64,000 nucleotides of DNA from Eledone cirrhosa (GCA_964016885.1 OZ024740.1:1240001-1304000), one strand, 5' to 3'. Positions 1 through 25,851 are shown, counted from the first letter of the stretch. Notes: generated by a model not told the origin, from the letters alone. Numbers and translations: made by a program.

Positions 1-138
1 AATTGGAATAAATGCTCTGAAATAGCGATATATATGTGAATATAGACATAGAATATTCGAAAATATTCTGTATGTTTATAATAAACATTTTGAAGACCTA
101 ATCGCTATAGAATAGAATACGTCACGTATTACAATTAG

Positions 139-228
139 ATTCTCGATAAAAGCAAGGGAAGTAAGTCTACGCGTTTCATTCTTGTTAGAATTCATCAGGA
201 CTACATATCCAGTGCTTTTATCGAGAAT
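139..228 (-). ncRNA. Type I hammerhead ribozyme, minus-strand representative (cores at 192, 503, 814, 1125)
   Basis: Reverse complement of 1736-1825; TCATCAG (=CUGAUGA) at 192-198. Confidence 0.9.
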
Positions 229-1735
229 GACACAGCTAGAGACTTATAGAATACTTAGCTGTGTACAGGAACTGGTTTGAAAGAGCGGTTGCCGGTCCGG
301 CAGAAATTAGAAATTGGAATAAATGCTCTGAAATAGCGATATATATGTGAATATAGACATAGAATATTCGAAAATATTCTGTATGTTTATAATAAACATT
401 TTGAAGACCTAATCGCTATAGAATAGAATACGTCACGTATTACAATTAGATTCTCGATAAAAGCAAGGGAAGTAAGTCTACGCGTTTCATTCTTGTTAGA
501 ATTCATCAGGACTACATATCCAGTGCTTTTATCGAGAATGACACAGCTAGAGACTTATAGAATACTTAGCTGTGTACAGGAACTGGTTTGAAAGAGCGGT
601 TGCCGGTCCGGCAGAAATTAGAAATTGGAATAAATGCTCTGAAATAGCGATATATATGTGAATATAGACATAGAATATTCGAAAATATTCTGTATGTTTA
701 TAATAAACATTTTGAAGACCTAATCGCTATAGAATAGAATACGTCACGTATTACAATTAGATTCTCGATAAAAGCAAGGGAAGTAAGTCTACGCGTTTCA
801 TTCTTGTTAGAATTCATCAGGACTACATATCCAGTGCTTTTATCGAGAATGACACAGCTAGAGACTTATAGAATACTTAGCTGTGTACAGGAACTGGTTT
901 GAAAGAGCGGTTGCCGGTCCGGCAGAAATTAGAAATTGGAATAAATGCTCTGAAATAGCGATATATATGTGAATATAGACATAGAATATTCGAAAATATT
1001 CTGTATGTTTATAATAAACATTTTGAAGACCTAATCGCTATAGAATAGAATACGTCACGTATTACAATTAGATTCTCGATAAAAGCAAGGGAAGTAAGTC
1101 TACGCGTTTCATTCTTGTTAGAATTCATCAGGACTACATATCCAGTGCTTTTATCGAGAATGACACAGCTAGAGACTTATAGAATACTTAGCTGTGTACA
1201 GGAACTGGTTTGAAAGAGCGGTTGCCGGTCCGGCAGAAATTAGAAATTGGAATAAATGCTCTGAAATAGCGATATATATGTGAATATAGACATAGAATAT
1301 TCGAAAATATTCTGTATGTTTATAATAAACATTTTGAAGACCTAATTGTAATACGTGACGTATTCTATTCTATAGCGATTAGGTCTTCAAAATGTTTATT
1401 ATAAACATACAGAATATTTTCGAATATTCTATGTCTATATTCACATATATATCGCTATTTCAGAGCATTTCAGAGCAAAATATTCTGTATGTTTATAATA
1501 AACATTTTGAAGACCTAATTGTAATACGTGACGTATTCTATTCTATAGCGATTAGGTCTTCAAAATGTTTATTATAAACATACAGAATATTTTCGAATAT
1601 TCTATGTCTATATTCACATATATATCGCTATTTCAGAGCATTTATTCCAATTTCTAATTTCTGCCGGACCGGCAACCGCTCTTTCAAACCAGTTCCTGTA
1701 CACAGCTAAGTATTCTATAAGTCTCTAGCTGTGTC

Positions 1736-1825
1736 ATTCTCGATAAAAGCACTGGATATGTAGTCCTGATGAATTCTAACAAGAATGAAACGCGTAGACT
1801 TACTTCCCTTGCTTTTATCGAGAAT
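1736..1825 (+). ncRNA. Type I hammerhead ribozyme, plus-strand representative (cores at 1766, 2077, 2388, 2699, 3010, 3321, 3632, 3943, 4254)
   Basis: Helix I GTAGTC 1760-1765 / GAC(T)TAC 1797-1803; CTGATGA 1766-1772; helix II ATTCT-aaca-AGAAT; GAAA 1787-1790; minimal palindromic helix III ACGCGT; GUA cleavage triplet, cut after 1796; outer 16-bp stem 1736-1751/1810-1825. Confidence 0.92.
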
Positions 1826-4450
1826 CTAATTGTAATACGTGACGTATTCTATTCTATAGCGATTAGGTCTTCAAAATGTTTATTATAAACATACAGAATA
1901 TTTTCGAATATTCTATGTCTATATTCACATATATATCGCTATTTCAGAGCATTTATTCCAATTTCTAATTTCTGCCGGACCGGCAACCGCTCTTTCAAAC
2001 CAGTTCCTGTACACAGCTAAGTATTCTATAAGTCTCTAGCTGTGTCATTCTCGATAAAAGCACTGGATATGTAGTCCTGATGAATTCTAACAAGAATGAA
2101 ACGCGTAGACTTACTTCCCTTGCTTTTATCGAGAATCTAATTGTAATACGTGACGTATTCTATTCTATAGCGATTAGGTCTTCAAAATGTTTATTATAAA
2201 CATACAGAATATTTTCGAATATTCTATGTCTATATTCACATATATATCGCTATTTCAGAGCATTTATTCCAATTTCTAATTTCTGCCGGACCGGCAACCG
2301 CTCTTTCAAACCAGTTCCTGTACACAGCTAAGTATTCTATAAGTCTCTAGCTGTGTCATTCTCGATAAAAGCACTGGATATGTAGTCCTGATGAATTCTA
2401 ACAAGAATGAAACGCGTAGACTTACTTCCCTTGCTTTTATCGAGAATCTAATTGTAATACGTGACGTATTCTATTCTATAGCGATTAGGTCTTCAAAATG
2501 TTTATTATAAACATACAGAATATTTTCGAATATTCTATGTCTATATTCACATATATATCGCTATTTCAGAGCATTTATTCCAATTTCTAATTTCTGCCGG
2601 ACCGGCAACCGCTCTTTCAAACCAGTTCCTGTACACAGCTAAGTATTCTATAAGTCTCTAGCTGTGTCATTCTCGATAAAAGCACTGGATATGTAGTCCT
2701 GATGAATTCTAACAAGAATGAAACGCGTAGACTTACTTCCCTTGCTTTTATCGAGAATCTAATTGTAATACGTGACGTATTCTATTCTATAGCGATTAGG
2801 TCTTCAAAATGTTTATTATAAACATACAGAATATTTTCGAATATTCTATGTCTATATTCACATATATATCGCTATTTCAGAGCATTTATTCCAATTTCTA
2901 ATTTCTGCCGGACCGGCAACCGCTCTTTCAAACCAGTTCCTGTACACAGCTAAGTATTCTATAAGTCTCTAGCTGTGTCATTCTCGATAAAAGCACTGGA
3001 TATGTAGTCCTGATGAATTCTAACAAGAATGAAACGCGTAGACTTACTTCCCTTGCTTTTATCGAGAATCTAATTGTAATACGTGACGTATTCTATTCTA
3101 TAGCGATTAGGTCTTCAAAATGTTTATTATAAACATACAGAATATTTTCGAATATTCTATGTCTATATTCACATATATATCGCTATTTCAGAGCATTTAT
3201 TCCAATTTCTAATTTCTGCCGGACCGGCAACCGCTCTTTCAAACCAGTTCCTGTACACAGCTAAGTATTCTATAAGTCTCTAGCTGTGTCATTCTCGATA
3301 AAAGCACTGGATATGTAGTCCTGATGAATTCTAACAAGAATGAAACGCGTAGACTTACTTCCCTTGCTTTTATCGAGAATCTAATTGTAATACGTGACGT
3401 ATTCTATTCTATAGCGATTAGGTCTTCAAAATGTTTATTATAAACATACAGAATATTTTCGAATATTCTATGTCTATATTCACATATATATCGCTATTTC
3501 AGAGCATTTATTCCAATTTCTAATTTCTGCCGGACCGGCAACCGCTCTTTCAAACCAGTTCCTGTACACAGCTAAGTATTCTATAAGTCTCTAGCTGTGT
3601 CATTCTCGATAAAAGCACTGGATATGTAGTCCTGATGAATTCTAACAAGAATGAAACGCGTAGACTTACTTCCCTTGCTTTTATCGAGAATCTAATTGTA
3701 ATACGTGACGTATTCTATTCTATAGCGATTAGGTCTTCAAAATGTTTATTATAAACATACAGAATATTTTCGAATATTCTATGTCTATATTCACATATAT
3801 ATCGCTATTTCAGAGCATTTATTCCAATTTCTAATTTCTGCCGGACCGGCAACCGCTCTTTCAAACCAGTTCCTGTACACAGCTAAGTATTCTATAAGTC
3901 TCTAGCTGTGTCATTCTCGATAAAAGCACTGGATATGTAGTCCTGATGAATTCTAACAAGAATGAAACGCGTAGACTTACTTCCCTTGCTTTTATCGAGA
4001 ATCTAATTGTAATACGTGACGTATTCTATTCTATAGCGATTAGGTCTTCAAAATGTTTATTATAAACATACAGAATATTTTCGAATATTCTATGTCTATA
4101 TTCACATATATATCGCTATTTCAGAGCATTTATTCCAATTTCTAATTTCTGCCGGACCGGCAACCGCTCTTTCAAACCAGTTCCTGTACACAGCTAAGTA
4201 TTCTATAAGTCTCTAGCTGTGTCATTCTCGATAAAAGCACTGGATATGTAGTCCTGATGAATTCTAACAAGAATGAAACGCGTAGACTTACTTCCCTTGC
4301 TTTTATCGAGAATCTAATTGTAATACGTGACGTATTCTATTCTATAGCGATTAGGTCTTCAAAATGTTTATTATAAACATACAGAATATTTTCGAATATT
4401 CTATGTCTATATTCACATATATATCGCTATTTCAGAGCATTTATTCCAAT

Positions 4451-24218: not shown

Positions 24219-24807
24219 TATATTTATATATATATATATACACATATGATATTTATATATATATATATATATATATATATAACGGTGATGAATTAGTTTT
24301 GCGAGGTTTTTTATATGAAATCGTGTGTCGAAACAAATATTGTTATACTTGGGGAGGGTCATATTTGTGTAATATTGCCAGAATTAATAACAGAACACAC
24401 TCACTGTTTGGTTGGTTTTCGCCTCTGTGTCTTTTATATCGGTTAATTTAATTTATTCGGTCCTCAATGTTACCATTGACTGACCAATGGTCAAAAATAC
24501 AGATACAATATAGACACAAACACATATATATAGTCTATCAAAGTTCTTTCGTTGCACATCTGCAACATTATCAGTGGTGCTATTATGTTTCCTCCCGTTG
24601 CATTGTATGCTTACGCCATCTTTAGTCTGTTGATTTATTTATTTATTTGTTGTTTTTTTTGTATTTTTGACTTCTTTGCGCATGCGTTTGCGTGTGTGTA
24701 TAGTGTTTTGTTTGATGTGTGTTCTTGCTTGAGTGACTGTGTATTGGTTAATGTATTCTATCTTAGTTTACTAGTGTGTGTTTATATGTGTTTGTTGTTA
24801 TTGCATA

Positions 24808-25287
24808 GGGAAATTAGCTAACCAGTGTAGAAAGGCCCTGACAATGACCCACTTAAAGATTAAGGTGGTAGAAAAGCCAGGAACCACCATAAAATCCCTG
24901 ATCAGCAAAACCTACCCTTTTAAGAAAACCCACTGTACTAATAGGAAATGTATCATATGTAAAGTAAACCCCCGGATAAAGTGTAAAACTAGAAACGTAG
25001 TCTATAGCATAAGATGTACAGAGGGTACTTGCAGAAACATGACAACAACATACATAGGCGAAACAGCTCGTAGCATAGGTGAAAGGATAGACCAACACTG
25101 GGGGGAACTAAAAGGACGAAAAAACGGTTCAGTACTATACGAACATGCTAGACAACAAGACAACGGTAATATAGACAACATAGAAGTTAGAATAATATCT
25201 AAACATAGAAATGACCCAGCAGATAGGCAAATCAGAGAGGCCAGCGAAATAGAACTTAGTAGGCCAAGGCTAAACAGAAAAAATTAA
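24808..25287 (+). pseudogene. Penelope-like GIY-YIG endonuclease fragment
   Basis: VVEKPGT, CTNRKCIIC, NVVYSIRC, YIGETAR, RQIREA, LNRKN*W; clear homologue of 14700-15326. Confidence 0.87.
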
Positions 25288-25595
25288 TGGAATAACAATA
25301 ACACCCAAACAAACAACACTGACCTAAGAGAAATATAAATAAATAAATAAATAAATACATACATACACAAGCACAATAACAACAAACACATATAAACACA
25401 CACTAGTAAACTAAGATAGAATACATTAACCAATACACAGTCACCCAAACAAGAACATACATCAAACAAAACACTATACACACACGCAAACGCATGCGCA
25501 GAGAAGACAAAAAAAATAAAATAAATAAATAAATAAATAAACAGACTAAATAAAGATGGCGTAGGCATATAATGCAACGGGAGGAAACATAATAG

Positions 25596-25640
25596 CACCA
25601 CTGACGATGTTGCAGATGTGCAACAAAAGAACTTTGATAG
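25596..25640 (+). ncRNA. Decayed hammerhead in the P2 pLTR
   Basis: CTGACGA-T-GTTGCA-gatg-TGCAAC-(A)AAA-GAAC-TT. The inverted copy near 24535-24580 keeps GAAA but reads CTGATAA. Helix I is weak. Confidence 0.5.
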
Positions 25641-25851
25641 ACTATATATATGTGTTTGTGTCTATATTGTATGTGTATTTTTGACCGTTGGTCAGTCAAT
25701 GGTAACATTGAGGACCGAATAAATTAAATTAACCGATATAAAAGACACAGAAGCGAAAACCAACCAAACAGTGAGTGTGTTCTGTTATTAATTCTGGCAA
25801 TACTATTTCACAAATATGACCCTCCCCAAGTATAACAATATATATATATAT

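What the first reader, a model, noticed from the sequence alone, without database searches (positions are those of the whole stretch)
1..25841. Candidate autonomous/non-autonomous system: Naiad-like Penelope elements and the ribozyme array share insertion signatures
Seen: the array and the P1/P2 elements have hammerhead motifs, an inverted 5' portion, and a right end that runs into (AT)n after CAAT (TTCCAAT|ATAT at 4450; AACAAT|ATAT at about 15814, 17566, 25839). Established: Penelope-like elements carry hammerheads in their pLTRs and often show inverted 5' pLTRs, and they have been proposed as mobilisers of animal retrozymes. Inference: a Naiad-type RT/GIY-YIG enzyme mobilised the 311-nt RNA. 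I see no primary-sequence homology between the unit and the pLTRs, and RTE and CR1 copies also sit in (AT)n here, so the link is circumstantial.
Basis: inference. Interest (0 to 1): 0.8.

Follow-up and report, generated by a model that had tools for sequence, protein, structure and literature searches.

The report
Retrozyme arrays with Penelope insertion ends
A 311-base repeat carrying a hammerhead ribozyme motif sits at over a thousand sites in this animal genome as back-to-back arrays with the same two fixed ends that Penelope-like jumping genes leave, so such an enzyme likely pasted each array in one step, though the local elements are not Naiads and the partner family is not identified.

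Summary
Observation confirmed and extended; Naiad label wrong; partner open. The unit is a non-LTR retrozyme (19,301 exact internal 24-mers). In two samples not chosen by their ends, 19 of 21 insertions are head-to-head arrays. All 81 inverted arrays in the census have one short end (unit position about 277) and one long end (311 in 56 of 80), a 32-37 nt extension. That is the published Penelope 'tail', which marks two internal reverse-transcription starts. RTE LINEs in the same (AT)n show 0 of 32 inversions. Both arms share one haplotype in 47 of 57 arrays (about 6 by chance). P1/P2 have RT then a C-terminal GIY-YIG plus a ribozyme: Neptune-like, not Naiad; an intact P1 exists. CAAT is not a shared signal: it is the array's long end but P1/P2's short end. 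A young Hydra-type element and many other tailed families are rival partners. The retrozyme-Penelope link was already proposed in print; my searches found no end-level evidence for it. The scan earlier saw Penelope-type ends on tRNA-like units in other genomes.

The parts
1..1346 (-). Inverted arm of the retrozyme array; continues to window position -283, where it ends at the short end (unit position about 277-285) in (AT)n
1342..1519 (.). Inversion junction with duplicated fragments (unit 175-303 plus, unit 211-253 minus)
1515..4450 (+). Direct arm, 9.4 identical 311-bp units, ending at the long end (unit position 311)
1755..1810 (+). Type I hammerhead motif of one unit (CTGATGA, 5-bp stem II, GAAAC, palindromic stem III; predicted cut 1796|1797); one per unit
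   Evidence: cleavage not tested
4417..4450 (+). The 'tail': sequence between short end and long end, present on one arm only
4449..4993 (.). (AT)n target microsatellite right of the array
4994..8419 (-). RTE-type LINE (1040-aa frame, (GAT)n tail) in the same (AT)n; used as control, not part of the system
14438..14700 (-). P1 inverted pLTR arm with the 60-nt tail (14438-14497)
14691..15326 (+). P1 5'-truncated frame: CX4CxxC linker and C-terminal GIY-YIG endonuclease
   Evidence: PF01541, E 1.7e-4, just under the curated cut-off
15613..15658 (+). P1 minimal hammerhead motif in the pLTR
   Evidence: architecture as in PMC4209133
15327..15814 (+). P1 3' UTR/pLTR ending at the short end, ACAAT|(AT)n
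17321..17566 (.). Short P1 end-only inverted insertion (tail on left, short end on right, no hammerhead)
24282..25839 (+). P2 copy: inverted arm with 59-nt tail (24282 to about 24803), endonuclease remnant (to 25287), pLTR with mutated hammerhead core, short end at 25839

Best explanation
The 311-bp array is a non-coding hammerhead repeat (a non-LTR retrozyme) whose insertions have the inverted, two-fixed-end layout of Penelope-like elements, and it was likely inserted in trans by a C-terminal-endonuclease Penelope-like protein rather than by a Naiad or a LINE. Shown: layout, end positions, flanks, shared haplotypes, and intact candidate enzymes in the genome. Inferred steps: (1) the repeat is transcribed into a circular monomer or an uncut multimer; (2) the GIY-YIG domain cuts both strands of (AT)n, leaving 3' overhangs (12 nt in the one readable case); (3) each overhang primes reverse transcription at its own internal site, one annealing to the AUAU tract at unit position 278-285 and one about 30 nt downstream at 311; (4) both cDNAs run through several units and their 3' ends join, mostly by short microhomology, giving a head-to-head array with a tail on one arm. 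Partner family, my estimates: P1/P2 (Neptune-like) about 0.3, Hydra-type P4 about 0.2, another Penelope-like family about 0.35. Circular monomer against uncut multimer as template: about 55 to 45.
For: End-blind samples: 10 of 11 and 12 of 13 insertions are inverted; union 19 of 21, each with one short and one long end (one shifted to 281/300). Census of 100 BLAST clusters, 97 insertions after merging 3 split pairs, mostly picked by end patterns: 84 inverted, none tail-to-tail; 81 called in one piece, 80 short plus long and 1 short plus shifted. Long end at 311 in 56 of 80 and at 311-318 in 76 of 80. Genome counts: 1,001 long and 1,271 short ends in (AT)n. 76 of 81 have (AT)4 on both sides; the one insertion in unique DNA (L038) has a 12-bp target duplication overlapping both ends. 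P1: 17 of 34 copies inverted, 14 of the 17 with one short and one long end; P4 pLTR: 15 of 51 inverted, all so. RTE: 0 of 32; second RTE query 1 of 31, without a fixed end pair. In intact P1 and P4 the tail runs on into the frame or 5' UTR, so both ends are internal template sites, as in the array. In vitro, a Penelope-like protein cuts and extends both strands and starts at two internal RNA sites that bound the tail, described as unique to these elements (PMC11167929). Arms share the majority haplotype in 47 of 57 arrays (about 6 expected), 13 of them seen in no other sampled array; arm lengths correlate (Spearman 0.40, p 0.0002); junction overlaps are 1-8 nt in 42 of 80.
Against: No sequence homology between the unit and the P1/P2 pLTRs, and a profile of retrozyme units showed no pLTR among the 60 low-scoring hits inspected of 1,521. 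The array's tail (32-37 nt) differs from those of P1 (60), P2 (59) and P4 (68 or 79). I saw no direct retrozyme-PLE chimera at junctions or 5' ends. The in vitro element started at RNA not homologous to the cut DNA, whereas here the short end has clear AT microhomology. 10 of 57 arrays differ between arms in majority haplotype, and L123 has a mosaic arm. 13 of 97 insertions are single-armed. The census is largely selected by end patterns and is all from C1. The CR1 control had one element only. Transcription, self-cleavage and circularity were not observed.
Confidence: 0.85

Rival explanations
1. A Naiad-type element (P1/P2 as the reader labelled them) mobilised the array.
For: Naiads prefer (TA)n, make inverted copies and 30-40-bp tails, and their endonuclease is nearly indistinguishable from Neptune's (PMC8557442). 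I did not search the genome for true Naiads, so one could exist as partner.
Against: P1 and P2 have RT upstream and the endonuclease at the C terminus, a DKS rather than DKA motif, and a hammerhead in the pLTR.
Confidence: 0.04
2. The partner is specifically P1 or P2 (Neptune-like). This is a sub-case of the best explanation.
For: Young, abundant and intact: 17,796 short ends, 97-100% amino-acid identity among 119 scored copies, one full-length open copy (L310). A 5-bp stem with a 3-nt loop starts 10 nt after the long end in both the retrozyme and P1 (0.5% of positions in the P1 frame have one; found after the fact).
Against: No homology; tail 60 against 32-37; in P2 the homologous register keeps 3 of 5 pairs and a different hairpin starts 6 nt after the end; many other tailed families exist.
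Confidence: 0.3
3. The partner, or the donor of the ribozyme, is the Hydra-type family P4. Also a sub-case of the best explanation.
For: P4 is young (97-100% identity in 119 scored copies, many with a 758-aa open frame) and inserts in (AT)n with two fixed ends. Its canonical hammerhead core aligns to the retrozyme's above all 300 shuffles.
Against: I picked P4 because of that likeness; the shuffles do not preserve the obligatory ribozyme core; nothing else aligns; tail 68 or 79 nt; sister retrozymes have other stem II sequences.
Confidence: 0.2
4. An RTE or CR1 LINE inserted the RNA by twin priming, helped by the internal AUAU tract.
For: RTE copies are abundant and sit in the same (AT)n; twin priming is known for L1 (recalled).
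Against: 0 of 32 RTE copies are inverted and RTE ends in (GAT)n, which the arrays lack. Long-arm 5' ends do not pile up at the second priming site (9 of 80 in 270-290, about 5 expected). The long end has only 2 nt of microhomology yet is fixed.
Confidence: 0.07
5. The arrays are satellites grown locally from a single inserted unit by unequal crossover, or are assembly artefacts.
For: Local amplification is the route suggested in bioRxiv 10.64898/2026.07.22.740005. It may add units after insertion.
Against: It does not produce head-to-head arms with two stereotyped ends at 84 of 97 sites, nor one haplotype across both arms with 29 different majority haplotypes among 57 arrays. Sites have distinct flanks and junctions.
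Confidence: 0.06

Closest known systems
Metazoan non-LTR retrozymes (PMC7229834, passages; bioRxiv 10.64898/2026.07.22.740005, parts 1-3 of 5)
   Same: 150-450-bp non-coding tandem unit, one canonical type I hammerhead per unit, low GC, dispersed arrays, coexisting with Penelope-like elements proposed as mobilisers.
   Different: Here the arrays are head-to-head with two fixed ends and a tail in (AT)n. 'Inverted' does not occur in the first paper's text and occurs only in a reference title in the second; 'tail' not at all in the second. No pLTR homology was found, unlike 24 of 57 Xenopus families. RNA circles not shown.
Canonical endonuclease-bearing Penelope-like elements, Neptune type (PMC8557442, passages; PMC3846280, passages)
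   Same: P1/P2: RT then CX4CxxC linker then GIY-YIG with CCHH; pLTR with minimal hammerhead; frame starting inside the pLTR and running through the tail; inverted 5' copy; (TA)n target; N-rich stretch in the frame.
   Different: Tail of 59-60 nt rather than 30-40. Clade assigned by motifs only; no tree with named references was built.
Hydra clade of Penelope-like elements (PMC8557442, section 11 read whole)
   Same: P4: short frame (758 aa), RWR for the RWK motif, DKT, CxCX5C linker, no CCHH, CxxC and CxH near the C terminus, canonical hammerhead, (TA)n target.
   Different: Lies outside the window; tail 68-79 nt.
Poseidon element of the green anole in vitro (PMC11167929, main text read)
   Same: Both strands cut and extended, AT-rich target, two internal start sites bounding the tail, ribozyme cut site not used as an end.
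   Different: Its start sites are not homologous to the cut DNA; it was tested on its own RNA, not on a retrozyme.
Non-autonomous Chlamys elements such as MRC1 (PMC8557442, passage)
   Same: Non-coding, multicopy head-to-tail insertions attributed to Penelope-like proteins.
   Different: They generally share 3' sequence with their partner and belong to the N-terminal-endonuclease group.

Membership tests
Non-LTR retrozyme | Tandem non-coding unit of 150-450 bp | tested here: met
   311-bp period; no frame of 100 aa within the array
Non-LTR retrozyme | Type I hammerhead in every unit | tested here: met
   Core and stems I-II by motif and fold; Rfam gave no hit
Non-LTR retrozyme | Dispersed multicopy family | tested here: met
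   19,301 exact 24-mers; at least 1,271 ends
Non-LTR retrozyme | Self-cleavage and circular RNA in vivo | not testable with these tools
   No RNA run was available to lay; no bench test
Penelope-type insertion signature (array) | Inverted 5' copy, head-to-head | tested here: met
   19 of 21 in end-blind samples; 84 of 97 in the census; none tail-to-tail
Penelope-type insertion signature (array) | 30-40-bp tail on one end only (two internal start sites) | tested here: met
   32-37 nt; 80 of 81 inverted arrays short plus long
Penelope-type insertion signature (array) | Short target duplication where readable | tested here: met
   12 bp in L038, a single case
Derivative of the P1/P2 pLTR | Sequence homology to the pLTR or tail | tested here: not met
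   Scores within the range of 300 shuffles
Naiad (P1/P2) | N-terminal GIY-YIG before RT | tested here: not met
   Endonuclease is C-terminal
Naiad (P1/P2) | No hammerhead in the pLTR | tested here: not met
   Minimal hammerhead motif present
Naiad (P1/P2) | DKG motif changed to DKA | tested here: not met
   PTDKSG in both
Neptune (P1/P2) | RT, CX2-5CxxC linker, C-terminal GIY-YIG with CCHH | tested here: met
   CIDKKCITC linker; two Cys inside the core and two His
Neptune (P1/P2) | Placement in an RT tree with named Neptune elements | not tested
   No named references were fetched; Nematis not excluded by tree
Hydra clade (P4) | CxCX5C linker, DKT, RWK-like motif, no CCHH, canonical hammerhead | tested here: met
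   CNCLNKEAC, SDKTK, IRWRA
LINE-mobilised SINE | 3' tail shared with the LINE, single fixed end, inversion rare | tested here: not met
   No (GAT)n tail, two fixed ends, inversion the rule
Autonomous/non-autonomous pair | Co-occurrence across species | tested here: inconclusive
   Other-organism holders look like carry-over; no relatives held

The most novel reading that the evidence does not exclude
An old lineage of viroid-like hammerhead circles, unrelated in sequence to any local pLTR, is recognised by structure and written into the genome in one event by a dimeric Penelope-like protein running two rolling-circle reverse transcriptions at once from a single circular monomer. Retrozyme arrays would then be ready-made insertion products and natural reporters of the unsolved later steps of Penelope transposition, not locally grown satellites.
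Probability: 0.4. Interest if true: 0.75.

Novelty: new member of a known kind. Interest (0 to 1): 0.58.

Why it matters
Which enzyme moves animal retrozymes has been argued from shared ribozymes, co-occurrence and pLTR likeness. This family gives end-level evidence: the tail and inversion that an in vitro study ties specifically to Penelope-like proteins. It names the RNA sites (unit positions about 280 and 311) and two intact enzyme families to test in an existing assay. It argues that arrays arrive as multimers rather than grow in place. The arrays also inform on the Penelope mechanism itself: two independently templated arms of correlated length joined by microhomology, which fits two primed strands better than self-priming fold-back. 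The class and the hypothesis are known, which caps the score.

Tried and rejected
DNA search of the genome with the unit returned nothing because common words are skipped; patterns were used instead. Rfam: no hit. Pfam on six frames: only weak GIY-YIG and RVT_1 hits below cut-off, plus one irrelevant low-complexity hit. Solved structures: one weak GIY-YIG hit, E 0.51. Expression: no RNA holder listed. Cross-species co-occurrence: 20 holders under 18 organism labels looked like wide spread, but the five other-organism contig sets laid were at low depth and three of the first four also covered the P1 frame; in X7 the retrozyme, P1 and RTE all appear at about a thousandth of X1's depth, while two raw DNA runs of other samples of that organism had no read on the retrozyme, so I treat it as probable carry-over and use none of it. 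CAAT as a signal: rejected. Ends at the ribozyme cut: 1 of 160 arm 5' ends in 141-147. An apparent cluster of junctions at unit position 1 was a BLAST artefact and vanished. A parent pLTR for the retrozyme: 0 of 30 loci of the shared ATCGCTATTTCAGAGCA block had a linked frame upstream. Hairpin 10 nt after the long end: present in the retrozyme and P1, not in register in P2; kept as a lead only. The P4 census crashed and was rerun on the pLTR only. No structure prediction, homologue search or tree was run.
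Full report
1. Observation. The window lies at G000:C1:1,240,001-1,304,000 of a 3.0-Gb genome. The array is a 311-bp unit at 100% identity, inverted at about 1346; its left end lies 283 bases before the window and also runs into (AT)n. Each unit holds a type I hammerhead motif with a palindromic stem III. P1 holds a minimal hammerhead of the kind described for Penelope-like pLTRs (PMC4209133, part 1 of 4 read). 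Both P2 copies in the window have a core change. Rfam found none at gathering threshold.

2. The array family. An internal 24-mer occurs 19,301 times. Two different ends run into (AT)n: a long end at unit position 311 (1,001 exact matches) and a short end at the internal AT tract near 277-285 (1,271). Among listed places up to 201.7 Mb of C1, 58 of 74 long ends have a divergent short end within 20 kb (chance about 0.005 each), none pairs with another long end, and one short-short pair occurs among 100 short ends. Two samples chosen by internal sequence gave 10 of 11 and 12 of 13 inverted insertions, 19 of 21 in union. The larger census, mostly picked by end patterns and therefore biased towards such ends, gave 100 clusters with both flanks inside a locus, 97 insertions after merging three split pairs: 84 inverted, 13 single-armed (one cut by an assembly gap), none tail-to-tail. 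Arrays running off a locus edge were dropped. Of 80 simple inverted arrays, the long end is at 311 in 56 and at 311-318 in 76. 76 of 81 have (AT)4 on both sides; three others have interrupted tracts, one a gap, and one (L038) lies in unique DNA with a 12-bp target duplication overlapping both ends.

3. This is the Penelope signature. The extension on one arm is 32-37 nt. A 30-40-bp tail on one end, with an inverted 5' copy, is described as typical of Penelope-like elements and not seen in LINE insertion (PMC8557442, passages; PMC3846280, passages). A purified Penelope-like protein cuts and extends both strands of AT-rich DNA and starts at two internal RNA sites whose gap is the tail (PMC11167929, main text; supplements not read). 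In this genome P1 (17 of 34 inverted, 14 with both ends), P2 (2 of 6) and P4 (15 of 51, pLTR query) show the same layout; RTE shows 0 of 32 and a second RTE query 1 of 31 without a fixed end pair; CR1 gave one element and is no test. In full-length P1 and P4 the tail continues into the frame or 5' UTR, so both ends are internal template positions, as they must be in the array.

4. Template and joining. Both arms share the majority haplotype in 47 of 57 arrays with full units on both arms (about 6 expected), with 29 haplotypes among them and 13 seen in one sampled array only. Arm 5' ends are spread along the unit, 1 of 160 near the ribozyme cut, so the template was circular or uncut. Arm lengths correlate (Spearman 0.40). 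Junction overlaps are 1-8 nt in 42 of 80, zero in 9, longer in 10, and gaps in 19. Either arm can be the longer (short-end arm in 34 of 80). In window P1 the tail-bearing arm holds sequence absent from the longer arm, so a fold-back copy cannot explain it. I infer two target-primed cDNAs joined head-to-head. Against a pure circle model: 10 of 57 arrays differ between arms, L123 is mosaic, private haplotypes could come from unsampled source arrays, and the in vitro element used unprocessed RNA.

5. P1 and P2 are not Naiads. [quoted passage not shown] L310 is full-length with a 1238-aa stop-to-stop frame. Naiads have the endonuclease first, a DKA motif and no canonical hammerhead. By motifs P1/P2 are Neptune-like; no tree was built.

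6. CAAT is not the link. It is the long end of the array but the short end of P1/P2, and its AT overlaps the target. A sister retrozyme group, 62-65% identical, has CCAAT 6 nt before its long end and stops there in 0 of 18 ends; 15 of 18 stop after CTAAT, the same 28 nt from the shared block as in the 311-bp unit. This favours a positional rule.

7. The partner is open. The unit does not align to P1/P2 ends beyond shuffles. Their tails are 59-60 nt. A Hydra-type family, P4, is equally young and often intact (PMC8557442 section 11), and its ribozyme core aligns above all 300 shuffles, but it was chosen for that likeness and the core is constrained. Many more tailed families exist. A hairpin 10 nt after the long end is shared with P1 but not in register in P2.

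8. Prior work. Penelope-like elements were proposed as retrozyme mobilisers from shared ribozymes, tandem copies and coexistence (PMC7229834, passages), and a 2026 preprint adds co-occurrence and pLTR homology in vertebrates and suggests local amplification (10.64898/2026.07.22.740005, parts 1-3 of 5; its supplements are closed and might bear on ends). Searches for end-level evidence found none: 'retrozyme' with 'head-to-head' 0 papers; Penelope, twin priming, inverted, tail 1 unrelated review; listings; text search of the preprint. The library lacks most subscription papers. L1 twin priming is recalled, not read. Earlier notes of this scan report Penelope-type ends on tRNA-like units in other genomes; they are unchecked and are not counted as support.

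9. Verdict. A new member of a known kind with unusually direct genomic evidence for a proposed partnership. Penelope-type insertion 0.85; Naiad label rejected; P1/P2 as the specific partner about 0.3; interest 0.58.

Noticed in passing
L124-L153 (G000:C1, first 24 Mb); L117:4555-4910; L037:9241-9487; L169:928-1161: A sister retrozyme group (313-320 bp, 62-65% identical and colinear with the 311-bp unit; 5,263 exact matches to the shared block) with the long end at the same distance despite different sequence, and still more diverged relatives.
   Followed up: partly
L270 (G000:C12:33,093,365-33,097,375) and 118 further scored copies: Young Hydra-type Penelope-like family P4, 758-aa frame, 4,001 exact ribozyme-core matches; its core resembles the retrozyme's.
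   Followed up: yes
G000:C1:83,679,791-83,699,003 (L188, L263): Twelve P4 ribozyme cores spaced about 1.07 kb on one strand and one on the other, with no P4 frame of 110 aa: a possible non-autonomous tandem derivative.
   Followed up: partly
L108:8136-8636: A 500-bp inverted insertion in (AT)n with a 37-nt tail and a stretch that reads like a tRNA T-loop (my reading; no tRNA scan run).
   Followed up: no
all fetched loci (1.4 Mb): Many further unrelated sequence families show inverted arms with a one-sided tail of roughly 30-120 nt in (AT)n; other GIY-YIG families occur at L150 and L122.
   Followed up: partly
L310 (G000:C3:287,231,000-287,239,000): Full-length P1 with both pLTRs and a 1238-aa stop-to-stop frame holding an Asn/His/Thr-rich stretch, like the N-rich inserts described for rotifer Penelope elements.
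   Followed up: partly
public runs X4-X20: The repeat is indexed under 17 further organism labels; the five laid look like low-level carry-over, a trap for horizontal-transfer claims.
   Followed up: partly
window 34138-46533, 46584-49157, 31534-32222, 60521-61326: Satellites of 43 bp (289 copies), 50 bp, 48 bp and 45 bp.
   Followed up: no
window about 30013-30070, + strand: A further hammerhead-like motif of another family.
   Followed up: no
L123: One arm holds two haplotypes (4 and 2 units) and the other arm only one of them; may mark a multimeric template or an error during copying.
   Followed up: no
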